DNA of 64,000 nt from Candidatus Magasanikiibacteriota bacterium (GTDB lineage: Bacteria; Patescibacteriota; Patescibacteriia; Magasanikbacterales; GWA2-37-8): NCBI GenBank assembly GCA_041666745.1, contig JBAYGI010000003.1, forward strand, positions 12,782 through 76,781, given 5' to 3'. Numbering within the stretch: the stretch's first letter is position 1; each line of letters starts with the position of its first letter. Below the pieces are notes generated by a model. The model was not told the DNA's origin. It worked only from the letters and a program-made list of their open reading frames with translations, and did no database searches. The translations under genes were made by a program, and so were the position numbers. Below, in pieces: positions 48,753-63,303 of this stretch.

Positions 48753-48776
48753 AAATTATCTGATACAATATTTAAT

Positions 48777-49766
48777 TTATGAATTATCTTTTTTGTTTTC
48801 TTTTACTTGTTGATCTATCCATCTATATAATTTTTCCATACCAACTTTTAAAGGTTGAGATGGCGCCCAATCAAGCTTTTCCCTAATTAAATTATTGTCA
48901 GAATTTCGGCCACGTACTCCCGTAAATCCTTCAACATGATTAATATTTAATTTTTTACCAGCAATATCCATCACCATATCCGCCAAATCATTTACTGAAA
49001 TCATTTCTTCGGAACCAATATTCATCGGACCAACAAATTCTGAATCCATGAAACGACGAATAGCTTCAAGACATTCATCGATATACAAAAATGAACGGGT
49101 TTGCAGGCCATCACCCCAAACTTCAATAGTACCACCGTCAATGGCTTCAGCAACTTTACGAGAAATGGCCGCGGGAAATTTTTCTTTACCATTATTCCAA
49201 GTACCTTCTGGCCCGAAGATATTATGAAAACGAGCAATCCTGACATTCAGGCCGTAATTACGCGCATACGACAAATACATACGTTCACTAAACAATTTTT
49301 CCCAACCATATTCACTGTCAGGGGCAGCCGGATAAGCAGAAGCTTCAGAACATTTTGGATTATTTGGATCCATTTGATTATACTCAGGATAAATACAAGC
49401 AGAGGATGAATAAAATATCTTCTTGACCCCTACTTTATGGGCTCGATCAACTATATTTAAATTGATGGTGGCGGAGTTATGCATAACATCGGCATCATGT
49501 AATCCAGAAAATATATAACCAGCGCCGCCCATATCAGCGGCTAGCTGATAAACTTCGTCAAATGGCAAATCTAATATTTTTTCAACTACGAGTTGATTCC
49601 TCAAATCCCCAATGACAAATTCGTCAGCGACAGTCGGTGAAAATTCTGGTTTTTTTAAATCTACTCCCCTTACCCAAAAACCCTCTTTCTTTAACTTTTC
49701 TACCAAGTGACTGCCGATAAAACCACCGGCACCACAAACCAAGGCTTTTTTATCCATATGATACAA
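48777..49766 (-). CDS. GDP-mannose 3,5-epimerase-like SDR
   Basis: 329 aa; GAGGFIGSHL...VRGVDLKKPEF...EFVIGDLR parallels the GME N-terminal pattern. Confidence 0.55.
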   Translation of the reverse strand: MYHMDKKALVCGAGGFIGSHLVEKLKKEGFWVRGVDLKKPEFSPTVADEFVIGDLRNQLVVEKILDLPFDEVYQLAADMGGAGYIFSGLHDADVMHNSATINLNIVDRAHKVGVKKIFYSSSACIYPEYNQMDPNNPKCSEASAYPAAPDSEYGWEKLFSERMYLSYARNYGLNVRIARFHNIFGPEGTWNNGKEKFPAAISRKVAEAIDGGTIEVWGDGLQTRSFLYIDECLEAIRRFMDSEFVGPMNIGSEEMISVNDLADMVMDIAGKKLNINHVEGFTGVRGRNSDNNLIREKLDWAPSQPLKVGMEKLYRWIDQQVKENKKDNS

Positions 49767-49843
49767 AATAACACTTAATTAGATATATAGATTAACATAT
49801 GCTGACAATGTTGGCAATGAATAATTTGGAGATTAAAAGCACG

Positions 49844-50572
49844 TCAGACGGCAGTCTTAACGAACCAAAAACAACCGCAACCATAGTGTTCTTTATCGGC
49901 CTGTTCCTTGGAGGCTTGACTAATCATAATACCATTATTTTCTGGAATAAGTGTGAATTCTTTTAAGGAAAGTTTTGAAAAATAACCAACTATTTGCTCA
50001 TAAGAATAAATACGGTGGGCGTTGTATTCTATTCTCGGTTGGCCAACAGGAACGACAAAAAATATATTTCCACCCGTGGCCAAAACTCGGCATAACTCAC
50101 CGATAGCTTTCAAGTCAGCTTCCGAGTCTATCTCTTCTCCATAACGACCAAGCCCAACATGCTCTACCACATGCATACAGGACAGACTATTAATACTAGC
50201 GTCTTTAAACGGCAAGTTCAATAAATCTGCTCGCTCGCTAGTCAAATTGGAAAGCGATAACTCTGCCGGACGATAATCATAAAATTTTACCGGAACGAAT
50301 GCGGAAACAATTCCCGAAAAATACAAACTAGAAGAGATGTCAGTGTGAAATGCCGGCTTAGTCTCCGCCAATTTTCTTGCCGCCCATGCTGTGTGATATA
50401 CATAATGTCTATCAAATCCAGTTTTAATAGTTTTGTCAGTAACACAAGGATAAGAATCTTTAAGCGACAACTTAAATCTGGATTTTTTGATTAAAATTTT
50501 AAAACGCCAATAATCACCTAATATAAATGGCGTTAAAATATATCGTGTAGCCTTTTTAATAAGTTTTCTCAT
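49844..50572 (-). CDS. Putative class I SAM-dependent methyltransferase (DUF268-like)
   Basis: 242 aa; LATGGNIFFVVPVG motif; weak. Confidence 0.35.
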   Translation of the reverse strand: MRKLIKKATRYILTPFILGDYWRFKILIKKSRFKLSLKDSYPCVTDKTIKTGFDRHYVYHTAWAARKLAETKPAFHTDISSSLYFSGIVSAFVPVKFYDYRPAELSLSNLTSERADLLNLPFKDASINSLSCMHVVEHVGLGRYGEEIDSEADLKAIGELCRVLATGGNIFFVVPVGQPRIEYNAHRIYSYEQIVGYFSKLSLKEFTLIPENNGIMISQASKEQADKEHYGCGCFWFVKTAV

Positions 50573-50595
50573 AAATTATAGTAAATGAAAAGTTT

Positions 50596-51642
50596 TTACT
50601 TAAACTTGCGATGTAGAAGTGGAAAATTTTTAATCTTTTTTACAACACTTTTAAACCAAACAAACAGCCGATACCACCACAAATTATTTCGCCACTGTCC
50701 TTTTTTTATTTTTTTTTCATCATATCCAGCCTCCAAGCTAAGACTAAAATATTTTTCATAAATCAACAGTAAATCTTTCGCTTGTTTTTCTAAACTTAAA
50801 TTCTCTACAATATATTGACGGGGAGAAAATCGATTCCAAGTAGTTTCCATAACATCGACGGCAACGCCTAACTGGCCAACCTCTTTTATTTTTACACCGC
50901 ATCGACTATCAAAATATGGAGCACTGGAGGTATTTACAAAATCATTCTCTTCTTTATTAAAAATAGCCATTTCCTTTTTGCTTGCCAACCAATGACCAAT
51001 ATTTTTTATATCCCACACCAACATCGGTATATTACTAGACAATGCTTCTTGTAAGGCTATCCCCTGACTTTCCTGTCGTCCAATCCAAACAATATACTTG
51101 GCCTCTTCCAATAGTTGTTTATAATCAGACTCTATATAATGGTTATAAACAATTTTTTTATATAAAATTTTTCTCTTAGTCAATTCCTGTTCTACGATTT
51201 GTAATTCTTCTGGAAAGCGCTGTTTAAAATAAATTAGCACAATCTTCTTCTCTTTAGCTGACGGAACAAACCCTGAAGTATCAATACCGACAGGCCACAC
51301 CGCAATCGGGCAACGGTTGAAACCAGTTTTTATCCAAAAATCTTTTGCCCAATCAGACGGATGTAGCCAAATTACACGAGATAAATCAACGGTCCGTGGA
51401 ACATGCCTTGGTAAAATAAATAAATTTGGACCGGCCACCACCTTTATCTCTGAAGGAAGATCCTTAACCTTAGTTAAGGCGTAAACATCGTCATGAATCC
51501 ACAAACGCTGACAAGCATCCAATCTTTGATTAATAACATAAGGATACTTTAAAATATCCAAACCCTTAATTAAATTTCTCACCACTTTTTGCGGACCACT
51601 CACACTACTAGATAAATATGATTTAGAAATGATGTTTATCAT
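50596..51642 (-). CDS. Hypothetical protein, possibly GT-B fold glycosyltransferase
   Basis: 348 aa; weak E-x7-E-like C-terminal region (QEALSSNIPMLVWD). Confidence 0.3.
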   Translation of the reverse strand: MINIISKSYLSSSVSGPQKVVRNLIKGLDILKYPYVINQRLDACQRLWIHDDVYALTKVKDLPSEIKVVAGPNLFILPRHVPRTVDLSRVIWLHPSDWAKDFWIKTGFNRCPIAVWPVGIDTSGFVPSAKEKKIVLIYFKQRFPEELQIVEQELTKRKILYKKIVYNHYIESDYKQLLEEAKYIVWIGRQESQGIALQEALSSNIPMLVWDIKNIGHWLASKKEMAIFNKEENDFVNTSSAPYFDSRCGVKIKEVGQLGVAVDVMETTWNRFSPRQYIVENLSLEKQAKDLLLIYEKYFSLSLEAGYDEKKIKKGQWRNNLWWYRLFVWFKSVVKKIKNFPLLHRKFK

Positions 51643-51659
51643 AACTCCTCATTATATAT

Positions 51660-52460
51660 TTAACCATTATTTATAGACACATATTTTCCTTTGTGAAAAA
51701 CAGATTGTATCTGATACTTTTCTTCAAGTTTTGCATCAACCAACACTATTTTATCCAAAACATTGTGCCTCCTATATACAATATTATTTTCCGCCACATG
51801 TATTGGTTTTCCACCAGAGCTTAGCCCGTTCCCATCTACCCTGAAAATACCAGCACTATTCTTGGCTAACACAAATTTATCGGAAACTTTTGCAGCACGC
51901 ACGCACCAATCAAAATCACCGACTATTTTGAGTTGTTCATCAAATGGACCGACTCGGTTGTATAAATCTTTAGTGAACATAAAAAATGGACCACAGCGCA
52001 TAGATCTGGTAAATTCACGTTTATCATATTTAACCGATCGATCAAACCTAAATTTTACTGGCAATGACCAATTTTTAATATTCAAATACCAGATTATCAA
52101 AAAAGGGAAATAAACTAAATCTACCCCTTGTTTGAAAAGCTCAGCCGCCTCTACAATTGCTTTTGGGTTACGCCTATCATCCACATTCCAGAATCCTACA
52201 GCCTCGCCTTTGGCCAATTCAACCCCTCTATTCCAAGTAGCATAAAGTGTCTCACGAGGAACACTCACAAAATTAAACCATTTTTCTTGTTTAAACAGTT
52301 CACCGAAAGTTTTTTCCGCTTCGGTAGGATCGTTGGCGATAGCGATCAACTCAAAATCAACATTGTGATCAATTAAATATTTTGCTACCTTTACTAATCT
52401 TTTACTAAATTTATCCAAGTAACGATCTGTTCTATATAGTGATGTAACTATGCTAATCAT
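51660..52460 (-). CDS. GT-A fold glycosyltransferase-like protein
   Basis: 266 aa; N-terminal ISIVTSLYRTDRYL and downstream acidic motifs. Confidence 0.45.
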   Translation of the reverse strand: MISIVTSLYRTDRYLDKFSKRLVKVAKYLIDHNVDFELIAIANDPTEAEKTFGELFKQEKWFNFVSVPRETLYATWNRGVELAKGEAVGFWNVDDRRNPKAIVEAAELFKQGVDLVYFPFLIIWYLNIKNWSLPVKFRFDRSVKYDKREFTRSMRCGPFFMFTKDLYNRVGPFDEQLKIVGDFDWCVRAAKVSDKFVLAKNSAGIFRVDGNGLSSGGKPIHVAENNIVYRRHNVLDKIVLVDAKLEEKYQIQSVFHKGKYVSINNG

Positions 52461-52465
52461 AATTA

Positions 52466-53302
52466 TTATTTTAATTCACTTAATAATTTTATTTTCTCTT
52501 TTTGATAATTTTTTTCGATACTCTCTAGAGTGATATCATTCTCTAGTTCAAATAATTTAACATATACCATAAACCTAAAAAAGGCATACTCAAGAGCAAC
52601 GATTAGTCCTCTCATACCACATTTATAACTGTATTTATAATACACTACAAAATATCTAAGCATTGCACCTAACATATAGGACAAACTAAATTTATCTCCT
52701 GCTTCAAATTTTTGATGTGCTTCAATTTGTGCATAGCGCCAGTGATTTCCTAAAAATTTATCTAAATTATAAAGACTAAAATGACGAATAGCATTCTCTT
52801 GCTTATCATCCAAATAAACAATCTCAGTTTGTTTGCCCAAATATTTACCCATACCGTGAATGCGGTTATTAGAAAAATCTACCACTTCTTTTCTAAAAAA
52901 ATTAGGATAAAAACATTTGTTCATCAACTTATTTGTAACACCCAAAAGATACGTATAGATTGGAATAAATACATATTTTTTATTATCCTGAAATGATATT
53001 TCTACCATTTTTTCTAATAGCTGCTTGGGAAATATATAATCAGCAAAACCCCAAAGAATCCAATCGTTTGCAGCAATTGATTTAATAAAATCAAAAGTCT
53101 CTTGATTTTCTACATCTAATTTCCCAGTTTTTGGTCTGACAAAATATTTTGCTCCTGATTCTTCTGATATCTTTTTGGTATTATCAGTACTACCATCATC
53201 CAATATTAAAACCTCGCCATAATTTAATAAATTTTCAATTACATATTTTATCCTTTTTTCCTCATTGTAAGTAAAAATGATAAAAGATATTTTTCCTTTC
53301 AT
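52466..53302 (-). CDS. GT2 glycosyltransferase
   Basis: 278 aa; SFIIFTYNEE ... LILDDGSTDNT. Confidence 0.75.
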   Translation of the reverse strand: MKGKISFIIFTYNEEKRIKYVIENLLNYGEVLILDDGSTDNTKKISEESGAKYFVRPKTGKLDVENQETFDFIKSIAANDWILWGFADYIFPKQLLEKMVEISFQDNKKYVFIPIYTYLLGVTNKLMNKCFYPNFFRKEVVDFSNNRIHGMGKYLGKQTEIVYLDDKQENAIRHFSLYNLDKFLGNHWRYAQIEAHQKFEAGDKFSLSYMLGAMLRYFVVYYKYSYKCGMRGLIVALEYAFFRFMVYVKLFELENDITLESIEKNYQKEKIKLLSELK

Positions 53303-53314
53303 AAAGTTAAAAAA

Positions 53315-55978
53315 TTATTTTATAAATAGCATTATACTTGCGTCGCCGATAACTTTTTGAAATTTGGAATTCAAAATTTTTAGCACCTGAACATTATCAT
53401 AGTCTTGAATAACAAAAACTTTTATCTGTTGGTCGCTATTAATATAATCTAACAGCCGATTAAATTGATATATAAAAAACAGATCAATTGCTGATGGTAA
53501 ATCAATTGCACACACGGTATTTGTTTCGTCGTAATACATTCCATCATATGCACCTGCCAAAATTAAAATACGTTCTCCAGGAATTGTATGTTGTTTGATA
53601 AAATTAATATTTTTTACAACATCTAAATTGTCCGGTAAAGTAAGATCCTGAAATGTTCTGTGCGTATTGTAGATAAAAAATTTTGTATTATAAGCCATAT
53701 CAAATACTGGTAGAACCAAAACATAGGCTAGCGCAATAATAACAAAATATAGGCCAACATTTATTTTAGTTCCAAGAGCGGTATAATTTCGAAGTGCGAT
53801 AACAAGATCATCAAGAAACATTGGTAGAATTAAAAATACAACAAATGATGGAGCAACTAATGTCAAACTGTGCGAACGACCTTCAAAATAAGCAAACAAT
53901 CCAGTGCCTATTATCGATAAAATAAAATATAGCGGCCCTTTTATATTTTCTGATTTCTGTACCAAACATATTATCGAAAATAAAAGAGAGATAAGATAGA
54001 CTAAAACGACCAGATACCATATGTGGGGGAAAATTGGCAATGGAATTAAGAAATAACCCGCATAAAACATTTTTGAATATTGAAAAAATAAATTAATATT
54101 AGGTATACTGCCAGAATAAAATATGTAATAAAAAGAAAATAAGGACAAACCCAACAACAAAGAAGCAACACCGATTAAAATGTGTTTGCAAATTGATTTA
54201 TATATATCTGCTAATTTTTTGCTTTCCCTTTTCCAAACTTCTAGATAAAGTAAAAATAGATTCCACGAAATAAAAACGACTATGCCGGAATCAAAGTTCC
54301 AAAATATTGCTAGAGTGGCTATAAAATGACCCAATGCGTATAAATATCGGTTGGGCTTTTTTAAATATTTAACTGAAATAAATAATATAGCGGATGGAAA
54401 TAACATTCGTATAGGCAAATACTGAAGATACTGATTGTAGATTCCATCTTTGAACATGTGTGAAAAGTTTGAATAGCCCAAAACACTTATAATTCCTAAC
54501 AAAGAAAAAATTTTTCTTTTGATACTACTATTCAAAAAATAAAATAAGCACAAATAACAAATCAATACTAAAATACACATCACAAACGTAAATTTAGTTA
54601 CTCCAACACCTATTAAATTAAAGACTGGTTTTAAAATAAGTGGAAATAAGCCATATAGACTTGGTACTTGTTGAATCAATATTTTACCATGGGCAATTTG
54701 AGTTTGAGGAAAATAGACTGGATCAAAATGATAATAATCTAAATTTCCTGCTAATGATGAAATATTAAAAAAAACTGTAAACACTAAAAGTATCACAAAT
54801 TCGATAGTTAACACTAAGGAAAGTATTTTTTGATATCTATCTTTAACCATCAAATGGACAACTAAAGGAAAAACTATGAAAGAATATGCTACAAATCCAA
54901 AAATAGAACTCGTGAGTGAAAACTTCGTATAAAAAAAGTCGCTCATTGACAAGCCGAGATAAATGAGTGAAGGCAGTCCTAAGATGGTAACTAAGGCTAA
55001 AAAAGAATTGACTTTACCAATTATTTTTTTTGATAAATTTTTTAATAATTTATTGGATAAATAATAATTAATTATTAAAAAAAACGGAGAAGCCAAGACA
55101 CACAATAAATATTGAAACTGCTCTATCGGCTTAGGAATAAAAGCAATGATGATAGAATCTAAATATATTTTTTTAGCTTGACTGATAATATTCGAAATGT
55201 CAGGATGAAAAAAAGTATTGATTAAATACGCCAAAAAAAATTCCGAAGTAATTGTAAAAAATATTGTAAGATATACTGCTTGATAATTATGCTGTTTTTC
55301 GTTCTTTTCTAAACCTTCTTCAGTAAACGTACCAATTCTAATATAGAATAAATAATATAAATATATTAAAAATAACCAAATAGAAATAGCCAACGACGGC
55401 CAAATTGCTTGCCCTAAAGTATTGCTGGTCAAATAACTGTCCCCTTTCCAATTTATTAATGATTTAAAAAAAACGTTTTTTACTGGAATTTTACTTCTTT
55501 CCAGAGACAATATGAAAGGTGAGGCTAAAATTATATTATTTTCTCCAATTCCTACATATCCAAAAGTAGACGACGTAACGTCTATCCACTTTTCCAACAA
55601 ATCACTTCGTGTATATTGAAAATCTTTTTCCCCTATAGATACAAGGACATCCTTAATTTTAGACAGATGAGAAGCATCAATTACCAATGCTACTCTTTCA
55701 ACAAAAACACCGCCGATCTCCCATGTGCTTGTACTAACAAAATTCATTCCTGTGTTATTGTGAGCTCTTGCCAATTTAGCTACAGGATTAAAATATCCTT
55801 TATTCTCACCGCTTGCATTTATAGTTACTTTAATATTTGCCAATGGTTCACGACTACTTACCGTCATAATACCTTTACCAGCGGTGATAATTACTAAAAA
55901 GAAAAAAATTAATAATGGAAAAAAAATAATATTTTTTTTGAAAATTTCAAACAAATTATTCATTTTAAAATCTTTCAT
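53315..55978 (-). CDS. Large polytopic membrane protein, paralog A (candidate GT-C-type glycan polymerase/transferase)
   Basis: 887 aa; N-terminal anchor plus ~150-aa extracytoplasmic domain, more than 14 TM helices, C-terminal soluble domain; motif FPQTQIAHGK..QQVPSLYGLFPLILKPVF shared with paralog B. Confidence 0.6.
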   Translation of the reverse strand: MKDFKMNNLFEIFKKNIIFFPLLIFFFLVIITAGKGIMTVSSREPLANIKVTINASGENKGYFNPVAKLARAHNNTGMNFVSTSTWEIGGVFVERVALVIDASHLSKIKDVLVSIGEKDFQYTRSDLLEKWIDVTSSTFGYVGIGENNIILASPFILSLERSKIPVKNVFFKSLINWKGDSYLTSNTLGQAIWPSLAISIWLFLIYLYYLFYIRIGTFTEEGLEKNEKQHNYQAVYLTIFFTITSEFFLAYLINTFFHPDISNIISQAKKIYLDSIIIAFIPKPIEQFQYLLCVLASPFFLIINYYLSNKLLKNLSKKIIGKVNSFLALVTILGLPSLIYLGLSMSDFFYTKFSLTSSIFGFVAYSFIVFPLVVHLMVKDRYQKILSLVLTIEFVILLVFTVFFNISSLAGNLDYYHFDPVYFPQTQIAHGKILIQQVPSLYGLFPLILKPVFNLIGVGVTKFTFVMCILVLICYLCLFYFLNSSIKRKIFSLLGIISVLGYSNFSHMFKDGIYNQYLQYLPIRMLFPSAILFISVKYLKKPNRYLYALGHFIATLAIFWNFDSGIVVFISWNLFLLYLEVWKRESKKLADIYKSICKHILIGVASLLLGLSLFSFYYIFYSGSIPNINLFFQYSKMFYAGYFLIPLPIFPHIWYLVVLVYLISLLFSIICLVQKSENIKGPLYFILSIIGTGLFAYFEGRSHSLTLVAPSFVVFLILPMFLDDLVIALRNYTALGTKINVGLYFVIIALAYVLVLPVFDMAYNTKFFIYNTHRTFQDLTLPDNLDVVKNINFIKQHTIPGERILILAGAYDGMYYDETNTVCAIDLPSAIDLFFIYQFNRLLDYINSDQQIKVFVIQDYDNVQVLKILNSKFQKVIGDASIMLFIK

Positions 55979-56011
55979 AATATTATTAAAAATATTTTTA
56001 CTATTTAAAAA

Positions 56012-58681
56012 TTAGTTTTCAAATAATATCATACCCGTACCGGTGACTTCTTTTTTAAATTTGGTATTTAAAATTTTTAAAATTTTTTCGTCGTTGTAAT
56101 CAGAATTAACGAAAATCTTTGATTTATTACCAGCGTCGAGATAATTCAATAGCAAATTATACTGATATTTAAAATTCCAATCCACTACAGATGGAAAATC
56201 AATTGCGCAGACTGTGTTTGTTTCACCATAATAAGTAGCGTCATAAGCGGCTTCTGGGGTAGCTAGTATTAAAATTCGCTCACCCGCTATTGTGTGATGT
56301 TTAATAAAATTAATATTTTTATTGATATTCTGATTAACTGGGTAATACAATTCCTTGTATGATTGGATGGAATTACTAATAAAATATTTAATATTTACTA
56401 TAATATTTACTGACGGTAATAACAAGAAAAATAATAGGATGGAGGTTATAAAACACGAATATACCACAATGTACTTATCAGTTTTTTTAAGAGAATACAC
56501 AATTGGTAAGTAATCATCCAACAAAAGAGCTAGTATTAAAATTGAAACAAAAGAAGAATCAAACAAAATAGCATTGAGTGCTCTACCTTGAAAATAAATA
56601 AATGAACCAAATCCTACAATAGACAGGATAAAATATAGTGGCGCTTTACTGTCATCCTTGTTTTTAATGACACAGATAAGAGACATCAACAACGACAACG
56701 TATAGATAAAAATTATTAAATGCCACATGTTTGGAAAAATCGGCAATGGATTCATACTAAAACCATTGTAAAACTCTTTTGAATATTGAAAAAACAAACT
56801 AATATCCGGCAAACCACCAAAGTGATATATATAATAAAATGACAACAACACCAAACCAGTCAACAAGAAACCGATACCACGTAACACGTGCTTACAAACG
56901 GACTTTATTACATCTAAAGACTTTTTATCTCCCCTTTTCAGTATTTCTAAATAAAGCAAAAATAAATTCCACGATATAAAAACGACTAAACCGGAATCAA
57001 AATTCCAAAATATTGCCACTGTTGCAACAAAATGACCTATACCATACAAACTCCTATTGGGATTTTTTAAATATTTAGCAGAAATAAACAATATTAGACT
57101 AGGAAATATTATGCGAATAGGCAGATGCTGGTAATTGATCTTATAGTTGAGACCAGCGGCCATTTGAGGAAGATGAAAATAATTTATAATATTTAACACG
57201 CCTAATAGTGGAATAATTTTATTATTAGTGGAAATTTTTAAAAATAATAAAATGAGAAAATAACAGCTGAAGATTATCACACCCATGACAATAGTAAATT
57301 TAAAAATTCCTAAACCTATAATGTCAAAAACAGGTTTTAAAATAAGCGGAAACAAACCATACAAACTAGGTACTTGCTGAATTATAGTTTTACCTTGAGC
57401 AATTTGTGTCTGGGGAAAATAGACAGCATCAAGATGGTGGGCATCATAACTTCCAACTGGTGACGATATAGCAAAAATAACAACAGAAAACAAAACAAAG
57501 GCCAATAAAACAGACAGAGTATTATAAACCCATCCCTGATATTTATTTTTTATAAGAAAATAAGAAAAAATAGGAAAAATTAAAAAAGCATAAACAGAAA
57601 ATCCAAAAACAGAATTTAATAAAGGAGGTACATAAAGAAAATTCCACATCGATAAAGATAAATAAATATAGGATGGCAAACCAATAAAAGTGCCAACTAC
57701 TAATAAAATATTTATTATATGCAATTTGTTGAGTAAAAATCGATTAACTATTTTTACGGATAAATAATAATTCACTAATAAAAGAAATGGTAAAAACATG
57801 ACACCTAGGATATATTGCAGGTTCTCTGTTGGTTTAGGAGTAAAACTTAAAACTATCTTATCTAGATATATTTCTTTGGCTTGATTAATTATATTTAAAA
57901 TGTTTGGATGATAAGAAAGTTTAATTAAACACATCAATAAATATTCGCTAATAAACGTAAAAAATAGAACGACATAGAATACAGTAAAATCAAATTGTAT
58001 TTGTTTAATATTTCGCCCTTCACTGGTCGGCGATAATGTTTCTGTATATACCAAAACAATAATATAAAAAAGGTACAGGAAAAAAGAGATAATAATAGAT
58101 GGCAACACCGCTTGTAGAACAGTGTTGTATGTTAAATATTTATCACCACGCCAGTTAATTATGGAACTAAAAAAATCTTTCTTTACAGGGATTTTGCTAC
58201 GTTCTAAAGCAAGAGCATATGGTGATGCTAAAGTGATTGCACTGTTGTCCATAGCAACTGAACCAAATGATTCAGAAGTGACTCTTTCCCATTGAGAGAG
58301 CAACTCATCTTGACTATAAATAAAATTTTTATCATCAATAGCGACAGTAACTTCCTTTATTTCTGATAATTGAGACCGGCTGAACGCTAAGGCGATTCGT
58401 TTTACAAAAACTGCGTTGACTTGCCAAGTGTTGACACCAGTTTTAATCAATTTAATGTTATTACCGGCCCTAACTAGTTTTGCCGCCACATCAAAATCAA
58501 CTGGTTTATTATCGTTAGTATTAATAATTACCTGTACATTTGCTAACGGCTCACGACTGCTGACTATTTTTAAACATTTACCGACAGAAACTACCGACCA
58601 GAAAAAAATAAATAACAGAAAAAACAATTTTAAATTTTTTTTAAAATATAATATTATTTTCTGTAAAATATTTCTATCCAT
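56012..58681 (-). CDS. Large polytopic membrane protein, paralog B (tandem duplicate of 53315-55978)
   Basis: 889 aa; same architecture and multiple conserved blocks (SSREPLAN, SLERSKIPVK, HxDxVYFPQTQIA). Confidence 0.6.
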   Translation of the reverse strand: MDRNILQKIILYFKKNLKLFFLLFIFFWSVVSVGKCLKIVSSREPLANVQVIINTNDNKPVDFDVAAKLVRAGNNIKLIKTGVNTWQVNAVFVKRIALAFSRSQLSEIKEVTVAIDDKNFIYSQDELLSQWERVTSESFGSVAMDNSAITLASPYALALERSKIPVKKDFFSSIINWRGDKYLTYNTVLQAVLPSIIISFFLYLFYIIVLVYTETLSPTSEGRNIKQIQFDFTVFYVVLFFTFISEYLLMCLIKLSYHPNILNIINQAKEIYLDKIVLSFTPKPTENLQYILGVMFLPFLLLVNYYLSVKIVNRFLLNKLHIINILLVVGTFIGLPSYIYLSLSMWNFLYVPPLLNSVFGFSVYAFLIFPIFSYFLIKNKYQGWVYNTLSVLLAFVLFSVVIFAISSPVGSYDAHHLDAVYFPQTQIAQGKTIIQQVPSLYGLFPLILKPVFDIIGLGIFKFTIVMGVIIFSCYFLILLFLKISTNNKIIPLLGVLNIINYFHLPQMAAGLNYKINYQHLPIRIIFPSLILFISAKYLKNPNRSLYGIGHFVATVAIFWNFDSGLVVFISWNLFLLYLEILKRGDKKSLDVIKSVCKHVLRGIGFLLTGLVLLSFYYIYHFGGLPDISLFFQYSKEFYNGFSMNPLPIFPNMWHLIIFIYTLSLLMSLICVIKNKDDSKAPLYFILSIVGFGSFIYFQGRALNAILFDSSFVSILILALLLDDYLPIVYSLKKTDKYIVVYSCFITSILLFFLLLPSVNIIVNIKYFISNSIQSYKELYYPVNQNINKNINFIKHHTIAGERILILATPEAAYDATYYGETNTVCAIDFPSVVDWNFKYQYNLLLNYLDAGNKSKIFVNSDYNDEKILKILNTKFKKEVTGTGMILFEN

Positions 58682-58693
58682 ACCTATGGCTTT

Positions 58694-59392
58694 TTATTTA
58701 CTAAAACGCAATTTAATTATTGTATAAATATAAGATAAAATGAAAACAAATAAATTTCTTTTGGTTTTACCAAAAATTCTCTGCTTAAAACAATACGGCA
58801 ACTCTAATATCTTTAAGTCACTTTTATTTCTTTTTAATTTTAAAAATATTTCTTCTACAATATCAAAATTATTACATTTCAAAACTATTTTTTTTAATTG
58901 ATCAGTGTGATACAGTTTAAAGCTGTTTGAAACGTCTTTGCACTTTAAATTTAAGACTACGGAATATATAACGTTTAGTATCAAACTCATTATTATTAAA
59001 ACCTTGTTGTTTTCAGTTTTTCCTCCAGTCACATAACGTGAAGCAACTACGACATCGTAATTAGACCGACTGGCAAATAAATCTACAATAAATTCTGGGG
59101 TATGAGAACCATCTGCGTCCATAAATATAATATTTTTACCGAGCGCCAATTTAATACCAGTTCTTACAGCATCACCATAATTATTGCCTCCCTCTCTATT
59201 GATATATTTAACCACATTCTCTTCACAAACACTCTCAGTCTTATCCATAGGTCGCTGAGTATCTACGACAATAATTTCGTAAGGTACTAACAATTTTTCT
59301 ACTGCAAGATGAATACGTGGTAATAATAGTTTTAAATTGTCTTCTTCTTGATAGGCAGGAAGAATAATACTTAATATAATATTTTGGGTCAT
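58694..59392 (-). CDS. GT2 polyprenyl-phosphate glycosyltransferase (GtrB/ArnC-like)
   Basis: 232 aa; ILPAYQEEDN ... IVVDT ... DADGSH. Confidence 0.75.
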   Translation of the reverse strand: MTQNIILSIILPAYQEEDNLKLLLPRIHLAVEKLLVPYEIIVVDTQRPMDKTESVCEENVVKYINREGGNNYGDAVRTGIKLALGKNIIFMDADGSHTPEFIVDLFASRSNYDVVVASRYVTGGKTENNKVLIIMSLILNVIYSVVLNLKCKDVSNSFKLYHTDQLKKIVLKCNNFDIVEEIFLKLKRNKSDLKILELPYCFKQRIFGKTKRNLFVFILSYIYTIIKLRFSK

Positions 59393-59393
59393 A

Positions 59394-60422
59394 TCATTTC
59401 ATTATTTCACCAGACCAATTTAACATTTTTTTAATACCGGTAACTTTGTCAATCTTTGGAAACCAAGCAATGTCATTTTGAATTTTAGTTAGATCAGCAA
59501 TGAATATTTTTTGATCACTTATTCGTACTGGTAATTCAATGTATTTTATTTTAACTTTTAACTCTTTTTCTAATAAACCAAATAATTCTAAAATAGACAA
59601 ACTATTTTCCATGCCACCGCCAATATTATAGCATTGTCCAGCTGTTTTATCAATGTTGAGAACAGCCGCAAAATACAACCGAACCATATCATCAGCGAAC
59701 AAAATATCTCTTACTTGTTTACCATTCCCGGAAATCGTAAGTCCTGAATAATTTGGATCTTTTACAAATTTTAACGCTTCCTGACAAAACCAACCAACCC
59801 ACCCCTGATCAGCGGTAGAGAACTGACGACCACCAAACATTGAAGAATGTCTAAACACAACGGTTCGTATACCAAAAACTTTATAATAATCAATCATATA
59901 TTGATCGGCACACCCCTTCGAACAACCATAAGGAGAAGAAAAACTTAAAGGAGTATTTTCAGACAACCCATTGGGAAAATCAGTGCTAATATAACGAGTG
60001 CTGTTTTCCTTGTAATGAACCCATTCTAAATCTCCATATACTTTATTAGTAGAAGAATATATTACAATTGATTGAGGGCTAAAACGACGAATGTTTTCTA
60101 ATAAATTTATGGTTCCCTGGGCATTAACCGAAAAATCATACAACGGGTCTTGCAAAGATGTGGTCATGGCAACCTGACCAGCGAGATGAAATACCACGTC
60201 TGGCATTTCTTCCTTTATTATTTTTTCTAACTGTTCATAATTTCTAATATCACATTCATAAAAATTAAAATGTCCATTTTCCTTTAACCAATCGAGGTTA
60301 GCACGAGATCCCATTCTAGATAAATTATCAACTACCACCAACTGATCTTTAGTGGTTGCAATTATGTGGCTAGCTATGTTTGAACCCAAAAAACCACACC
60401 CGCCGGTTATCAAATATTTCAT
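59394..60422 (-). CDS. NAD-dependent epimerase, CDP-paratose 2-epimerase (tyvelose epimerase)-like
   Basis: 342 aa; TGGCGFLGSN; HLAGQVAMTTS motif resembling the tyvelose epimerase signature. Confidence 0.55.
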   Translation of the reverse strand: MKYLITGGCGFLGSNIASHIIATTKDQLVVVDNLSRMGSRANLDWLKENGHFNFYECDIRNYEQLEKIIKEEMPDVVFHLAGQVAMTTSLQDPLYDFSVNAQGTINLLENIRRFSPQSIVIYSSTNKVYGDLEWVHYKENSTRYISTDFPNGLSENTPLSFSSPYGCSKGCADQYMIDYYKVFGIRTVVFRHSSMFGGRQFSTADQGWVGWFCQEALKFVKDPNYSGLTISGNGKQVRDILFADDMVRLYFAAVLNIDKTAGQCYNIGGGMENSLSILELFGLLEKELKVKIKYIELPVRISDQKIFIADLTKIQNDIAWFPKIDKVTGIKKMLNWSGEIMK

Positions 60423-61321
60423 ATTATTTTTTTATTTCTCTCAATTAATAACATTTTCTCTAAACCCCGCTTAATATCATAATTTGGTACCCAGCCCAAG
60501 TGCTTAATAGCAATAGTATCTGATACAGATTGCATCACTTCATTCTCACGGTAAGGCAAGGCTCCAAAATTGAGTTCGGTTACATGGTTATTAGACAATT
60601 CTTTAATAGTTTCTACCAACCATCTAATGGAAATTAATTTGTTTGTACCAATTTCATAATGAAAAAAACCATCTGCATTGTTGGTAAGATTTTTTATTAC
60701 TAACATAAATGCATCAACCACATCATCAATATAGACAAAATCTCTCTGTTGTTCACCCTTAGTCAAATTTATGCTCTTTACTTTATTTAACAAAGAATCA
60801 AAAATATTAGAAACAAATTTGGTTTTATCATCACCAGGACCGTAAAAATGCTCCAAAGCCATATTTACGCAGACAATGTCATCTTGGTAGGTTTTAAGCC
60901 AATCGATAAACTGTGCTTTAGACAAAGAATAATGACTTACTCTTTTGTCTAAAATTGTATCTGTATTAATAAAACACTTCACTTTGTTTTCTTTGCCTAA
61001 TTCCAATAATTTTAATGGTAAAATTAAATTAGCTTCAATAACTTGTAATGGTAACGATTGTTTACGCCCATAGTCAGTGGCACAATGCAAAACAACATCT
61101 ATAGGCTGATCTTTAAACACCACGGACAAATCCACTTGGTCGATGTTATAATATTTCACATTAGATAATACATCATCGATACGATGAGTGTTAGAGTAAG
61201 ATCTTTTTAATAAAATAACTTTATATTTATTTAAAATCAGACGACGCAACAGATTGCTACCTAAAAACCCCGTACCGCCTGTTATAAGTATTGTCTTGGC
61301 TATAATTAGTTTTTCATCCAT
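60419..61321 (-). CDS. SDR-family NDP-sugar reductase (CDP-abequose/paratose synthase-like)
   Basis: 300 aa; TGGTGFLGSNL; context next to RfbH and the epimerase. Confidence 0.5.
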   Translation of the reverse strand: MDEKLIIAKTILITGGTGFLGSNLLRRLILNKYKVILLKRSYSNTHRIDDVLSNVKYYNIDQVDLSVVFKDQPIDVVLHCATDYGRKQSLPLQVIEANLILPLKLLELGKENKVKCFINTDTILDKRVSHYSLSKAQFIDWLKTYQDDIVCVNMALEHFYGPGDDKTKFVSNIFDSLLNKVKSINLTKGEQQRDFVYIDDVVDAFMLVIKNLTNNADGFFHYEIGTNKLISIRWLVETIKELSNNHVTELNFGALPYRENEVMQSVSDTIAIKHLGWVPNYDIKRGLEKMLLIERNKKII

Positions 61322-61325
61322 AAAA

Positions 61326-63302
61326 TTACCAATTAATATTTTTAAATAGAGCGTTCCCCATCAATTCTTTTCCTACCAAATCATCTTCCACAAGTTCAAA
61401 ACCAAAATTACTTAAATATTTTTTAAGACAATCATAATCTTCAGCACCATCGTAAAACTCTTTTTTGGACACCTCTGTATAAATGAAATGTATGCTTTTT
61501 ATTTTATCTCCTAAGGATTTAAAGATACGGTATTCCATTCCCTGAGCGTCAATCCAAAGCAAATCTATTTTATCCACACAATTGGACGTCAACCAGACAT
61601 CCAACAAAACTGCCGACACAAATACACTTCCTTGAAATTCTACTCCAGGAAAATATTTTAAATGTTCTTTTGGTCTCAATAGCGAACTTGAACACCCACT
61701 ATTATCGCTAACAAACATCTCAACTTGATCAACATTTTTATCGTCAGTAACAGCATTTTGGATTATTTCAATATTTTTAAAATCTTTAGTTTTAAATTTT
61801 AATCGCGCAAAAGTATTTGGTAATGGTTCAAATGCATAAATTTTGCCGTTTGGCCATAATGTAGCCATCTCTACAGTATCACTACCAACATGAGCACCTA
61901 TTTCTATAACCACAGGATTAGTGCCTATATAACGTGAAATTTTTTTCTTGGAAATAAGGGAGTTTCGATTCAGAAACAATCTAATTTTAAGATATAATTT
62001 ATATAGTTGGTAGTTGTTAATAGTGTAATTCTTTAAGTTAAATTCTGGCTTTAAATTTATATTATTTGCAATATAAAAATACCACATTAATACAACGACC
62101 GTCAGCATATAGACGGGTCGAAGAGCAAAAACAGTCATAAATGGTTGCTGATCAAACACTGGAAACAACAACGGTTGAGACAATGACAAAAATAGCAATA
62201 ATTGGATAAATAAGTCACAATAAAAACCAATTTTTGGTCTCAGATTCCAATAAACAGTAAAAATAAATAAATAATATAGACTATTATGCAACCACGACAC
62301 TGTCGGTAAGAATGAGACCAAAAACATCAAAGTTCCAAATTCAAGCAACATCAAATCTTTATTTTGTTTTTCTATTTTATTTACTTTATAAAATAGTCCA
62401 AAAAAGAAACCAGATATAATTAAACCAACGATTGCAGTTAACAATTGTGCCTGTTGAAGATTTAGAATATTATAAGTAAAACGATTGTATATTATACCTC
62501 CCAAACCAGTACTCAAACCACCGGCAACTATACCACTGGTAGCAAAACTAGATACAACACCCCAGAAATCAACAAATGAATTCATGCCAAATATTAAGAC
62601 AAAAAATAATAAAGAAATAATAGTATAAATAAATACTTTTTTATTTTTAATAAAAAAGTATGGAAGAAAAACTATCGGCATCAATTTTAATACAATCGAC
62701 GATGCTAATAAAAAACTAGAGATCTTGTATTTCCCTTGCAAATAAAACAAAAGGCACAAAGACACTAATAATAGTATCTCTATATTTGTTTGCCCTCGAT
62801 CTAGATGGAGCAAGAAAGCCGGAGAGAATAAAAATACCAAAAAAGTAATAATAAAATATGGCCATTTTTGCTGAACAAGTTTACTTAAAAAATACACCGA
62901 AAGAAGCAGTAAAAGAATCGAGACTAAATTATACACAAAAAAAGACACATCGAGCGGTAGCATGCTAAACGGAATGAAAAAATAAGCCATCAACGGAGGA
63001 TAATTAAATCTGGCGTATTCAAAAGGATAGCTGGTTTCACCAGGGTAACGATCGTTGAGTGGAAAATAAAAATTTTTCCCCTGAGATGCCCGCATTCCAG
63101 CAAAATAAAAATAATTATAATCTATACCAGTACTATAATTAATTGTAGGCTTAAGAAATTTGGAATTATTTGCAAATGGTTGATAGTTAAAATCAAAAAT
63201 CAACACAGACAATGCCAAAATACCGAACAAATAAATACCGACAAATAAATATCTACTAAGAAATAATTTAAATTTTTCTTTTGTTTCGTTTTTTAAAAAC
63301 AT
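61326..63302 (-). CDS. Fusion protein: N-terminal DUF2029/GT87-like polytopic glycosyltransferase plus C-terminal FkbM-family SAM methyltransferase
   Basis: 658 aa; RFNYPPLMAYFFIPF loop motif with ~11 TM; C-terminal VVIEIGAHVGSDTVEMA ... FEPLP FkbM signature. Confidence 0.65.
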   Translation of the reverse strand: MFLKNETKEKFKLFLSRYLFVGIYLFGILALSVLIFDFNYQPFANNSKFLKPTINYSTGIDYNYFYFAGMRASQGKNFYFPLNDRYPGETSYPFEYARFNYPPLMAYFFIPFSMLPLDVSFFVYNLVSILLLLLSVYFLSKLVQQKWPYFIITFLVFLFSPAFLLHLDRGQTNIEILLLVSLCLLFYLQGKYKISSFLLASSIVLKLMPIVFLPYFFIKNKKVFIYTIISLLFFVLIFGMNSFVDFWGVVSSFATSGIVAGGLSTGLGGIIYNRFTYNILNLQQAQLLTAIVGLIISGFFFGLFYKVNKIEKQNKDLMLLEFGTLMFLVSFLPTVSWLHNSLYYLFIFTVYWNLRPKIGFYCDLFIQLLLFLSLSQPLLFPVFDQQPFMTVFALRPVYMLTVVVLMWYFYIANNINLKPEFNLKNYTINNYQLYKLYLKIRLFLNRNSLISKKKISRYIGTNPVVIEIGAHVGSDTVEMATLWPNGKIYAFEPLPNTFARLKFKTKDFKNIEIIQNAVTDDKNVDQVEMFVSDNSGCSSSLLRPKEHLKYFPGVEFQGSVFVSAVLLDVWLTSNCVDKIDLLWIDAQGMEYRIFKSLGDKIKSIHFIYTEVSKKEFYDGAEDYDCLKKYLSNFGFELVEDDLVGKELMGNALFKNINW

Positions 63303-63303
63303 A

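What the first reader, a model, noticed from the sequence alone, without database searches (positions are those of the whole stretch)
53315..58681. Tandem paralogous ~890-aa polytopic membrane proteins in the glycan locus: candidate undescribed GT-C-like polymerase/transferase family
Two adjacent genes encode proteins with the same architecture: an N-terminal anchor, a ~150-aa extracytoplasmic domain, more than 14 TM helices and a ~170-aa C-terminal soluble domain. They share several conserved blocks (SSREPLAN, SLERSKIPVK, H-x-D-x-VYFPQTQIA-x-GK, QQVPSLYGLFPLILKPVF) but are otherwise diverged. The locus contains no recognisable Wzx, Wzy, Wzm/Wzt or oligosaccharyltransferase, so these proteins may carry polymerase, ligase or transfer functions. 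I could not assign them to a known family from sequence alone.
Basis: partly seen in the sequence, partly recalled or inferred. Interest (0 to 1): 0.6.

Follow-up and report, generated by a model that had tools for sequence, protein, structure and literature searches.

The report
Unnamed family of lipid-sugar glycosyltransferases
Two neighbouring genes in a candidate-phylum (Magasanikbacteria) genome encode large membrane proteins from a widespread family that Pfam and NCBIfam do not cover; they most likely sit on the outer face of the cell membrane and transfer a sugar from a lipid carrier onto a surface polymer or protein.

Summary
ORFs 53315..55978 and 56012..58681 (minus strand; 887 and 889 aa) are 49% identical paralogs, and neither has a Pfam, NCBIfam or PDB sequence match.

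They are not an isolated oddity. An exhaustive profile search finds 2,022 cluster representatives, in Patescibacteria, Margulisiibacteriota, Sumerlaeota, Geobacter and Paenibacillus. These are annotated only as "hypothetical" or "LamG domain-containing".

A confident AlphaFold model (pLDDT 90) matches only GT-C-fold enzymes: ArnT, PglB/STT3, DPY19, AglB, Emb and PMT.

All family-invariant polar residues lie on the extracytoplasmic face. Examples are E286 in EL1, D/E563, R524, Y442 and R701.

The gene just upstream is a polyprenyl-phosphate hexose synthase-like GT2. Of 33 unrelated metagenome loci with enough flank, 18 carry a GtrB/DPM1-type GT2 and/or GtrA nearby. One cluster of relatives is fused to GtrA, and others to LamG or TPR domains.

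Best reading: these are the GT-C component of a three-component (Gtr/Arn-like) extracytoplasmic glycosylation system, duplicated in this lineage. A polymerase, ligase or oligosaccharyltransferase role is not supported.

Verdict: an undescribed sequence family within a known enzyme kind, of moderate interest.

The parts
53315..55978 (-). Paralog A, 887 aa. N-in anchor TM, outside beta domain, linker TM, 15-TM GT-C-like core, outside C-terminal alpha/beta domain.
   Evidence: ORF. AF2 model with pLDDT 90.2 and pTM 0.91. Foldseek top hits are ArnT, PglB, STT3, DPY19 and AglB. Keeps all family-conserved residues.
56012..58681 (-). Paralog B, 889 aa, same architecture. Identical to P0006, a Candidatus Magasanikbacteria MAG protein on a 145-kb contig.
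   Evidence: Keeps E286, Y442, R524, WNxDxG and R701. Departs from the family consensus at Y517N, Y520H, H652N, S702A and H703L; the GRAL-for-GRSH change (S702A/H703L) is shared by all B-clade orthologs, while H652N is shared by P0008 but not P0007.
55427..55855 (-). Paralog A residues 42-184: extracytoplasmic beta-rich domain. It is found only in the ~890-aa subfamily and is a candidate acceptor-binding module.
   Evidence: Beta strands with pLDDT of about 87-97 in the model. Absent from core-only relatives, whose matches begin at about residue 222. No Pfam or PDB sequence match.
53690..55315 (-). Paralog A residues 222-763: the 15-TM core shared by the whole family.
   Evidence: Profile matches of 2,022 representatives cover query positions ~222-885. 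Helix map and positive-inside test: K+R density 0.258 inside against 0.066 outside.
55121..55135 (-). EL1 motif P-K-P-I-E (family consensus P-E-P-x-E). E286 is the candidate catalytic or donor-binding acid, at the outer end of TM2.
   Evidence: E286 is conserved in 212 of 218 members and P282 in 208 of 218. Outside location. Coordinates checked.
54284..54301 (-). W-N-F-D-S-G turn between core TM9 and TM10, on the outer face. The second universally acidic position (D563).
   Evidence: W 215/218, N 217/218, D or E 218/218, G 215/218. Location.
54407..54415 (-). P-I-R motif. R524 is invariant and is a candidate ligand for the phosphate of the lipid donor.
   Evidence: R 218/218 and P 215/218. Lies in outside loop 506-525.
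53870..53881 (-). G-R-S-H motif in an outside loop of paralog A. It reads G-R-A-L in paralog B, at 56576..56587.
   Evidence: R701 93%, S702 94%, H703 80% across the family. B-clade substitution.
53318..53689 (-). Paralog A residues 764-887: conserved extracytoplasmic alpha/beta C-terminal domain.
   Evidence: Model pLDDT of about 92-97 over residues 790-887, lower (about 80-89) in the linker 764-789. Conserved across the family, e.g. E802, E818, D832, K853. In relatives it is followed by LamG or TPR extensions.
58694..59392 (-). 232-aa GT2 immediately upstream of B: predicted polyprenyl-phosphate hexose synthase that makes the lipid-linked donor.
   Evidence: Best PDB relatives are Dol-P-Man synthase 5mlz (2e-21), GtrB 5ekp and ArnC. 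The top four of its five NCBIfam hits are polyprenyl-P transferases (AglJ, ArnC, PgfS, Dol-P-hexose transferase), all below cut-off. The same gene precedes the family gene in L001, L003, L004 and L013.
59394..61321 (-). Two SDR-type sugar-nucleotide enzymes: a 4,6-dehydratase-like protein (342 aa) and an epimerase/reductase-like protein (300 aa). They are the presumed source of the modified NDP-sugar.
   Evidence: Pfam. NCBIfam best hit is dTDP-glucose 4,6-dehydratase, 2.6e-47, below cut-off.
61326..63302 (-). GT87 (a recognised GT-C) fused to an FkbM methyltransferase, in the same operon-like block.
   Evidence: Pfam GT87 4e-20 and Methyltransf_21 2e-17. Conserved in L003.
63304..64000 (-). 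RfbH-like PLP/PMP enzyme (CDP-6-deoxy-4-hexulose 3-dehydrase type), cut by the window edge.
   Evidence: NCBIfam RfbH 6.3e-101, matching profile positions 225-438 only. The ortholog in L003 is 439 aa.

Best explanation
The two genes encode paralogous members of an unnamed GT-C-fold (GT-C_A-like) family of membrane glycosyltransferases. They are the third component of a Gtr/Arn-type three-component extracytoplasmic glycosylation system.

Proposed mechanism:
1. Cytoplasmic enzymes encoded just upstream (an RfbH-like enzyme and two SDRs) tailor an NDP-hexose, probably a deoxy sugar.
2. The adjacent 232-aa GT2 transfers that sugar to polyprenyl phosphate.
3. A GtrA-type protein flips the lipid-P-sugar. 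In the syntenic relative this is a GtrA-GT87 fusion encoded just beyond the window edge.
4. Paralogs A and B bind the lipid-P-sugar at a site on the outer membrane face. That site is built from E286 (EL1), D563, R524, Y442 and R701/S702/H703.
5. They transfer the single sugar to an extracytoplasmic acceptor, either a cell-surface glycan or a protein. The N-terminal beta domain and the C-terminal alpha/beta domain are positioned to hold the acceptor.

The two copies arose by a lineage-specific tandem duplication. They probably differ in acceptor or linkage, or they act as a heterodimer.

Shown: paralogy, family size, GT-C fold match, topology, location of conserved residues, gene neighbourhood.
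Inferred: donor type, catalytic residues, flipping step, acceptor, division of labour between A and B.
For: Fold:
- AF2 model built from 124 sequences has pLDDT 90.2 and pTM 0.91.
- Foldseek against the PDB ranks ArnT 5f15 first (E 3e-5, TM 0.49 by target length, 596 columns). PglB, STT3, DPY19 and AglB follow, all at probability 1.00, with Emb and Pmt1/2 lower down. Transporters score below 0.2.

Topology:
- K+R density is 0.258 in loops assigned inside and 0.066 in short loops assigned outside.
- Every family-conserved polar residue except D723 (mid-membrane, in TM 710-734) maps to the outer face.

Conservation over 218 non-redundant members:
- E286 97%.
- Position 563 is 100% acidic.
- Y442, G443 and R524 100%; W654 217 of 218 (the remaining sequence has a gap there).
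- W560 and N561 99%.
- R701 93%.

Local partner:
- The upstream GT2's best solved relatives are Dol-P-Man synthase, GtrB and ArnC.

Family-wide context:
- Operons of the form GtrB-like GT2 -> GtrA -> family gene occur in L028, L032 and L042; L081 has GtrA -> GT2 -> family gene. The L032 GT2 matches GtrB 5ekp at 1e-46.
- L087 reads family gene -> PMT_2 -> GtrA -> GT2 -> nucleotidyltransferase -> dehydratase -> DegT.
- L002 reads GT2 -> YfhO -> family gene.
- Of 33 metagenome loci with at least 8 kb of flank, 18 have a GtrB/DPM1-like GT2 and/or GtrA within 6 kb, and 8 have both.
- Among 120 immediate neighbours: 12 epimerase/dehydratases, 11 GT2, 10 DegT, 6 GtrA, 4 PMT_2.

Fusions:
- An N-terminal GtrA domain in the P0020 cluster (PF04138, 1e-19).
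- C-terminal LamG_3 domains in many members.
- C-terminal TPRs in P0113 and P0150.
CBM fusions are known on characterised GT-Cs: Emb, AftD and GT136 (PMC11127046). TPR fusions on the TMTC enzymes are known from PMC7801869.
Against: - No sequence-level homology to any known GT-C. The profile gives no PDB hit at E <= 10. hhalign against YfhO and GT87 gives probability below 1%. No Pfam GT-C hit in 68 members at E <= 1.
- The best-conserved EL1 acid lies at the end of EL1. In ArnT, PglB and GT136 the catalytic Asp follows TM1 directly. The residue in that position here (D260) is only about 30% conserved and is Asn in paralog B.
- The Magasanikbacteria subfamily has lost several acidic residues that are conserved elsewhere in the family: E283K, D437Q, D515N/K, D704S/N.
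- No GtrA gene lies inside the window. Its presence is inferred from the syntenic L003.
- About 45% of well-flanked loci show neither partner nearby, and L086 has no glycan context at all.
- No biochemical data exist for any member.
Confidence: 0.72

Rival explanations
1. They are oligosaccharyltransferase- or ligase-like enzymes. On this view they move a complete polyprenyl-diphosphate-linked glycan, built by the many cytoplasmic GTs of the locus, en bloc onto a protein or wall acceptor. That would fill the missing Wzy/WaaL/OST role the first reader had in mind.
For: - PglB, STT3 and AglB are among the best fold matches.
- The 24-64 kb locus has an initiating Bac_transf enzyme and many GT2/GT4 genes, but no recognisable Wzy, WaaL or ABC exporter.
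Against: - The OST signature WWDxG is absent from all 218 members.
- No STT3 Pfam hit.
- ArnT, which uses a monophosphate donor, is the top fold hit.
- Family-wide partners are GtrB/DPM1-like monophosphate-sugar synthases and GtrA, not Wzx or initiating transferases.
- No WaaL, Wzy or SEDS structure appears in the best 50 matches.
Confidence: 0.1
2. They are protein O- or C-glycosyltransferases of PMT/TMTC/DPY19 type. They would use polyprenyl-P-hexose to glycosylate secreted or surface proteins rather than a polysaccharide.
For: - DPY19 and Pmt1/2 are among the fold matches.
- The adjacent GT2 is closest to Dol-P-Man synthase.
- Some relatives carry C-terminal TPRs, as the TMTC enzymes do.
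- A 1141-aa secreted-type protein lies in the locus.
Against: - No PMT, PMT_2 or DPY19 sequence signal.
- LamG-type lectin fusions, and neighbourhoods rich in polysaccharide genes such as Wzt, GT4 and NeuB, point to glycan acceptors in many members.
- This is really a variant of the main explanation with a different acceptor. The present data cannot settle which acceptor applies.
Confidence: 0.12
3. They are non-catalytic or non-glycosyltransferase membrane proteins, such as a scaffold, transporter or flippase, that merely share a many-helix architecture.
For: - No sequence homology to any characterised enzyme.
- TM-scores are only 0.3-0.5.
- Paralog B has lost some family-conserved residues.
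Against: - All matches with high Foldseek probability are GT-C enzymes or GT-C-related proteins; transporters score probability below 0.2.
- Invariant Glu, Asp, Arg, Tyr and His residues cluster on the outer membrane face, as in GT-C active sites.
- A separate flippase candidate (GtrA) co-occurs or is fused.
Confidence: 0.06

Closest known systems
ArnT (GT83; undecaprenyl-P-L-Ara4N:lipid A transferase; PDB 5f15/5ezm) and the Arn pathway
   Same: - Best fold match.
- N-in polytopic core followed by an outside C-terminal alpha/beta domain.
- Pathway logic is the same: tailoring of an NDP-sugar, an ArnC/GtrB-type GT2, a small flippase, then a GT-C.
   Different: - About 10% identity and no profile-level homology.
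- A 15-TM core instead of 13.
- A different motif set: PEPxE, QYGLYP, PIR, WNxD(T/S)G, YYQGRSHD.
- The conserved EL1 acid sits at the end of EL1 rather than the start.
- The acceptor is unknown. CPR bacteria are generally thought to lack an outer membrane and lipid A (general knowledge, not tested here).
Gtr-type three-component O-antigen/teichoic-acid glycosylation systems: GtrA/GtrB/GtrC, CsbB-GtcA-YfhO, and GT136 ORF12 (PMC11127046, PMC8035078, PMC7389260)
   Same: - The same three-gene logic and operon layouts, GT2 -> GtrA -> polytopic transferase.
- Carbohydrate-binding-type accessory domains on the GT-C component (PMC11127046).
   Different: - The transferase belongs to none of the sequence families used there. 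There is no YfhO, PMT_2 or GT87 Pfam hit, and hhalign against YfhO is negative.
- In several loci it sits next to a second, recognised GT-C: YfhO in L002, PMT_2 in L087, GT87 in the window.
PglB/STT3/AglB oligosaccharyltransferases (GT66)
   Same: GT-C_A fold matches ranked 2-14. Outside C-terminal domain.
   Different: - No WWDxG motif.
- No STT3 Pfam signal.
- Genomic partners indicate monophosphate single-sugar donors.
Heterodimeric GT-C pairs Pmt1-Pmt2 and EmbA-EmbB
   Same: Paired paralogous GT-C proteins, and for EmbA/EmbB adjacent genes. This is a precedent for A and B working together.
   Different: Nothing here shows an A-B interaction. Relatives outside this sublineage carry a single copy.

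Membership tests
GT-C superfamily (lipid-phosphate-sugar-dependent membrane glycosyltransferases), GT-C_A structural class | Polytopic fold resembling solved GT-C_A enzymes | tested here: met
   Foldseek of the pLDDT-90 model: ArnT, PglB, STT3, DPY19 and AglB fill ranks 1-14 at probability 1.00 and E 3e-5 to 8e-3, with EmbB and Pmt1/2 further down the list. Non-GT-C hits score below 0.2. The result is moderate (TM 0.3-0.5) and comes from one program only.
GT-C superfamily | N terminus inside; first extracytoplasmic loop with short helices and a conserved acidic residue | tested here: met
   Core TM1 is 232-256. EL1 is 257-283, with helices 261-271 and 274-277. E286 is 97% conserved at the EL1/TM2 boundary, and position 283 is Glu in 82% of members. 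Positive-inside bias is 0.258 against 0.066. The canonical position right after TM1 (D260) is not conserved.
GT-C superfamily | Uses a polyprenyl-phosphate-linked sugar donor | not testable with these tools
   Indirect support only: an adjacent DPM1/GtrB/ArnC-like GT2, co-occurrence with GtrB-like GT2 and/or GtrA in 18 of 33 well-flanked loci, and a GtrA fusion.
GT-C superfamily | Sequence membership in a described GT-C family (Pfam PMT, PMT_2, STT3, YfhO, GT87, Glyco_transf_22, Arabinose_trans, etc.) | tested here: not met
   No such hit in A or B, in 68 members at E <= 1, or in 10 diverse members against NCBIfam. No PDB sequence hit. hhalign against YfhO and GT87 is negative. CAZy families such as GT136 could not be queried.
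Three-component (Gtr/Arn-type) extracytoplasmic glycosylation system | Polyprenyl-P-sugar synthase (GT2) encoded alongside | tested here: met
   Window gene 58694..59392. It has the same position in L001, L003, L004 and L013. A GtrB-like GT2 occurs in 23 loci.
Three-component (Gtr/Arn-type) extracytoplasmic glycosylation system | Small flippase (GtrA, SMR or MATE) encoded alongside | tested here: inconclusive
   None lies within the window next to the pair. A GtrA-GT87 fusion lies about 6 kb upstream in the syntenic L003, beyond the window edge. GtrA lies within 6 kb in 16 loci and is fused in the P0020 cluster.
Oligosaccharyltransferase STT3/PglB/AglB (GT66) | WWDxG motif in the C-terminal outside domain; STT3 sequence family | tested here: not met
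   0 of 218 members contain WWD. No STT3 Pfam hit.
Wzy polymerase / WaaL O-antigen ligase / SEDS | Wzy_C or FtsW/RodA sequence family, or that fold | tested here: not met
   No Pfam hit. No such structure among the best 50 Foldseek matches.

The most novel reading that the evidence does not exclude
The pair belongs to a large family, at least 2,000 clusters at 50% identity across many phyla, that has no Pfam, NCBIfam or PDB sequence match. It would be a new GT-C family deserving its own CAZy number, with these features:
- an unusual 15-TM core;
- an active site built around a Glu at the end of EL1 plus a W-N-x-D-(T/S)-G turn;
- a dedicated role in adding rare deoxy, amino or branched sugars from polyprenyl-phosphate donors to surface polymers.

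In Magasanikbacteria the family has duplicated into a conserved A/B pair. The pair may work as a heterodimer in which B has a remodelled site.
Probability: 0.45. Interest if true: 0.55.

Novelty: new member of a known kind. Interest (0 to 1): 0.45.

Why it matters
The membrane core of about 2,000 protein clusters is currently annotated as "hypothetical" or, misleadingly, "LamG domain-containing". This includes proteins from cultured Paenibacillus and Geobacter. If the core is a GT-C glycosyltransferase, several things follow:

- Many surface-glycan loci gain their missing extracytoplasmic step.
- The family becomes a candidate new CAZy family, as happened for GT136 in 2024 once activity was shown.
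- CPR bacteria, whose envelopes are almost unstudied, would be shown to run multi-enzyme lipid-P-sugar glycosylation. This window holds two polyprenyl-P-sugar synthases and at least three GT-C proteins.

The conserved motifs give direct mutagenesis targets, and Paenibacillus dendritiformis offers a tractable host. The finding does not overturn any concept: the GT-C superfamily is already known to be diverse and under-annotated.

Tried and rejected
- **Word-indexed homology searches.** The first found only 10 relatives. Repeating it with the 124-sequence profile returned the same 10, which wasted a search. The exhaustive profile search was what revealed the family.
- **First AF2 run.** On 12 sequences it gave pLDDT 58 and was discarded.
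- **Genome scan.** The search for related loci with the broad alignment failed for lack of a conserved stretch. The genome-contig scan with the narrow alignment found only one locus.
- **Profile comparisons.** hhalign against YfhO and GT87 was negative.
- **Soluble domains.** PDB sequence searches with the N- and C-terminal domains gave only noise.
- **Context panel.** A phmmer panel built from window proteins was too insensitive for distant contexts. It was replaced by batch Pfam counts and custom GtrA and GtrB HMMs.
- **Missing record.** P0035 (Geobacter) had no contig on record.
- **Readings rejected.** OST (no WWDxG motif), Wzy/WaaL/SEDS (no fold or sequence signal) and transporter (Foldseek probability below 0.2).
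Full report
**1. Observation**

The window carries two adjacent minus-strand ORFs at exactly the stated coordinates. Paralog A is 53315..55978 (887 aa) and paralog B is 56012..58681 (889 aa). BLASTP gives 49% identity and 68% positives over 859 residues, E = 0. Those blocks are all present, though 'SLERSKIPVK' is exact only in A.

Paralog B is identical to a protein of a Candidatus Magasanikbacteria MAG on a 145-kb contig. The window is therefore from a CPR/Patescibacteria genome. GC content drops to 0.28-0.32 across this part of the locus.

**2. Known families**

- Neither protein has a Pfam or NCBIfam match above noise.
- A 12-sequence profile finds nothing in the PDB at E <= 10.
- Sixty-eight diverse relatives scanned one by one against Pfam at E <= 1 give no recurrent family and no GT-C family.
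- Ten diverse members, including those from cultured species, have no NCBIfam match on the core.

**3. Family size and range**

The word-indexed search found only 10 relatives. That result is misleading. The exhaustive HMMER profile search over 1.84 billion cluster representatives finds 2,022 with E <= 1e-3 and 909 with E <= 1e-30.

The shared unit is query residues ~222-885, a core of about 660 aa. The N-terminal 220 residues (anchor TM, beta domain and a linker TM) occur only in a subfamily of about 890 aa.

Named members:
- Paenibacillus dendritiformis, a complete genome, annotated 'LamG domain-containing protein'.
- Geobacter sp. OR-1, annotated 'hypothetical'.
- Candidatus Sumerlaeota, Margulisiibacteriota and Patescibacteria.

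Accessory domains:
- A C-terminal Laminin_G_3 lectin-type domain in many members.
- C-terminal TPR arrays in P0113 and P0150.
- An N-terminal GtrA domain in the P0020 cluster (PF04138, 1e-19).

**4. Structure**

With 12 sequences AlphaFold2 gave a poor model, pLDDT 58. With a 124-sequence alignment it gave pLDDT 90.2 and pTM 0.91.

Foldseek against the PDB:
- ArnT 5f15 ranks first (E 3e-5, 596 aligned columns, TM 0.49 normalised to ArnT).
- PglB, human and yeast STT3, the C-mannosyltransferase DPY19 and AglB follow, all at probability 1.00.
- Lower down come PIG-U, EmbB and EmbA, Pmt1/2 and GPI mannosyltransferase I.
- Unrelated transporters score probability below 0.2.
- No WaaL, Wzy or SEDS protein is among the best 50.

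**5. Topology and conserved residues**

The model's helices give 17 TM segments: the anchor, a linker TM and a 15-TM core. K+R density is 0.258 in loops assigned to the cytoplasm and 0.066 in short loops assigned outside. This places EL1, the beta domain (42-184) and the C-terminal alpha/beta domain (764-887) outside.

Conservation across 218 non-redundant members of at least 600 aa:

| Residue (paralog A numbering) | Conservation |
|---|---|
| E286 (motif P-E-P-x-E at the EL1/TM2 boundary) | 97% |
| Position 563 (W-N-x-D-T/S-G turn) | 100% acidic (D 170, E 48) |
| Y442, G443, R524 | 100% |
| W654 | 217 of 218 (one gap) |
| W560, N561 | 99% |
| R701 / S702 / H703 | 93% / 94% / 80% |
| H417 | 77% |
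| K432 | 74% |
| H652 | 81% |

All of these map to the outer membrane boundary or to outside loops.

Two caveats apply. First, the canonical GT-C position directly after TM1 (D260) is only about 30% Asp and is Asn in B. Second, the Magasanikbacteria subfamily has replaced several acidic residues that are conserved elsewhere: E283K, D437Q, D515N/K, D704S/N.

**6. Local context**

Directly upstream of B lies a 232-aa GT2 (58694..59392). Its best solved relatives are archaeal Dol-P-Man synthase (2e-21), GtrB and ArnC. The top four of its five NCBIfam hits are polyprenyl-phosphate sugar transferases (AglJ, ArnC, PgfS, Dol-P-hexose transferase), all below cut-off.

Further upstream:
- A 4,6-dehydratase-like SDR.
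- A second SDR.
- A GT87 (GT-C) fused to an FkbM methyltransferase.
- An RfbH-like 3-dehydrase, cut by the window edge.

In the syntenic relative L003 the whole block is conserved, including the B-then-A tandem pair. A GtrA-GT87 fusion lies just beyond where our window ends.

The window also holds a second lipid-P-sugar synthase, a PpgS-like GT2 at 24170..24838 (2.8e-56). Elsewhere it contains an initiating Bac_transf enzyme, many GT2/GT4 genes, a GT11 fucosyltransferase, rhamnose-pathway genes, FtsW and MurJ.

**7. Family-wide context**

Eighty metagenome loci were fetched with family motifs and analysed offline.

- Among 120 immediate neighbours the commonest Pfam families are epimerase/dehydratase (12), GT2 (11), DegT (10), TPR (7), GtrA (6), nucleotidyltransferase (5) and PMT_2 (4).
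- A custom GtrA HMM finds GtrA within 6 kb in 16 loci.
- A GtrB-type GT2 HMM finds such a gene in 23 loci. Its seed, the L032 GT2, matches GtrB 5ekp at 1e-46 and ArnC.
- Of 33 loci with at least 8 kb of flank, 18 have one or both partners and 8 have both.
- Operon orders are canonical: GT2 -> GtrA -> family gene in L028, L032 and L042, and GtrA -> GT2 -> family gene in L081.
- L087 reads family gene -> PMT_2 -> GtrA -> GT2 -> nucleotidyltransferase -> dehydratase -> DegT -> epimerase -> NeuB.
- L002 reads GT2 -> YfhO -> family gene.
- In Paenibacillus the gene sits in a Wzt-type ABC-transporter glycan locus, next to DegT, a nucleotidyltransferase, a dehydratase and a TPP enzyme.
- Not all loci show this. 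L086 has no glycan context.

**8. Interpretation**

The anatomy and the company these genes keep match the GT-C component of the three-component extracytoplasmic glycosylation systems. These are described for O-antigen (GtrABC), lipid A (Arn), teichoic acids (CsbB/GtcA/YfhO) and pentofuranose side chains (GT136) (PMC11127046, PMC8035078, PMC7389260).

I infer that the adjacent GT2 loads a tailored hexose onto polyprenyl phosphate and a GtrA-type protein flips it. The RfbH-like enzyme suggests the hexose may be a 3,6-dideoxy sugar. A and B would then transfer it outside the membrane to a glycan or protein acceptor. The beta domain here, or LamG/TPR domains in relatives, would act as acceptor-binding modules. 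Donor, acceptor and catalytic residues are all inferred, not shown.

**9. The duplication**

A neighbour-joining tree places the A clade (window A, P0001, the L003 downstream gene, P0002-4) and the B clade (window B, P0008, P0007) in one sub-clade, together with P0005, which branches at its base. The single-copy Magasanikbacteria GW2011_GWA2_37_8 gene (L001/P0009) lies outside that sub-clade. Orthologs are 83-90% identical across genomes, while A and B are 49% identical, so both copies are maintained.

The B clade consistently changes G-R-S-H to G-R-A-L. Window B and P0008 also change H652 to Asn, but P0007 does not. The A clade keeps H652, and all of it except P0003 (GRSL) keeps G-R-S-H. This points to functional divergence. 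A heterodimer like Pmt1/2 or EmbA/B is possible but untested. Tandem copies were seen only in the window and L003.

**10. Rivals**

- An oligosaccharyltransferase or ligase role is disfavoured. WWDxG is absent from all 218 members, there is no STT3 signal, and the partners are monophosphate-donor enzymes.
- A Wzy, WaaL or SEDS role has no fold or sequence support.
- A protein O/C-glycosyltransferase role is a variant of the main model with a different acceptor and cannot be excluded.
- A non-enzymatic role is unlikely, given invariant polar residues clustered on the outer face.

**11. Novelty**

I found no paper describing this family or GT-C enzymes of Patescibacteria. CAZy membership could not be tested.

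The kind of system is well known and GT-C diversity is acknowledged (PMC10920833). This is therefore a new, large and unannotated sequence family within a known enzyme kind, not a new mechanism. It has moderate interest and clear practical value for annotation and for choosing mutagenesis targets.

Noticed in passing
window 61326..63302 (-); L003 406..2070 and 3378..5351: A GT87 (PimE-like GT-C) is fused to a C-terminal FkbM-type methyltransferase. The syntenic relative also has a GtrA-GT87 fusion just beyond the window's right edge. A GT-C fused to a SAM-dependent methyltransferase raises a topology question, because SAM is cytoplasmic.
   Followed up: partly
window 24170..24838 (-): A 222-aa GT2 is PpgS-like (polyprenyl-phospho-N-acetylgalactosaminyl synthase, NCBIfam 2.8e-56, below cut-off). 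It is a second lipid-P-sugar synthase in the same window.
   Followed up: partly
window 63304..64000 (-): The gene that Pfam calls DegT is RfbH-like (CDP-6-deoxy-4-hexulose 3-dehydrase, 6e-101) and is cut by the window edge. This suggests a 3,6-dideoxyhexose pathway feeding the module.
   Followed up: partly
window 39598..43023 (-): A 1141-aa ORF whose only Pfam hit is a Lamin Tail Domain, sitting in the middle of the glycan locus. It may be a surface protein or an acceptor.
   Followed up: no
window 47901..49766 (-): A GT11 fucosyltransferase lies next to a GDP-fucose-synthase-like SDR, so the glycan is probably fucosylated.
   Followed up: no
window 52000..64000: GC content falls to 0.28-0.32, against 0.36-0.45 over most of the window. 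This fits a distinct or laterally exchanged glycan module.
   Followed up: no
window 24000..64000: Every ORF of at least 120 aa that was assigned a function in the ~40-kb glycan locus is on the minus strand, except the Bac_transf initiating phosphoglycosyl transferase at 26021..27373 (+). No Wzx, Wzy or ABC exporter was recognised in this stretch. A MurJ-type MOP flippase lies at 16166..17782 (+).
   Followed up: partly
L002 7357..13802: In a distant relative the family gene is followed by three radical-SAM/SPASM proteins and several methyltransferases, with a TPP enzyme at the end. This is an unusual tailoring set next to a glycosylation module.
   Followed up: no
L085 (Paenibacillus dendritiformis CP124222, 5684526-5703156): The family gene is preceded by a 721-aa DUF6311 membrane protein. 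It is followed by DegT, a nucleotidyltransferase, a dehydratase, a TPP enzyme, an acetaldehyde dehydrogenase and an HMGL-like aldolase. That set resembles branched-chain (yersiniose-type) sugar synthesis, and the locus is Wzt ABC-transporter-dependent.
   Followed up: no
L088 2528..6052: Two tandem DUF8201 proteins (598 and 575 aa) lie upstream of the family gene in a 2.7-Mb genome, together with GT87, NeuB and DegT.
   Followed up: no
window 50596..51642 (-) and 43067..43570 (-): Two locus ORFs (348 aa and 167 aa) have no Pfam match. The 348-aa one has only a weak IagA/BgsA-type GT hit in NCBIfam (2.5e-6).
   Followed up: no
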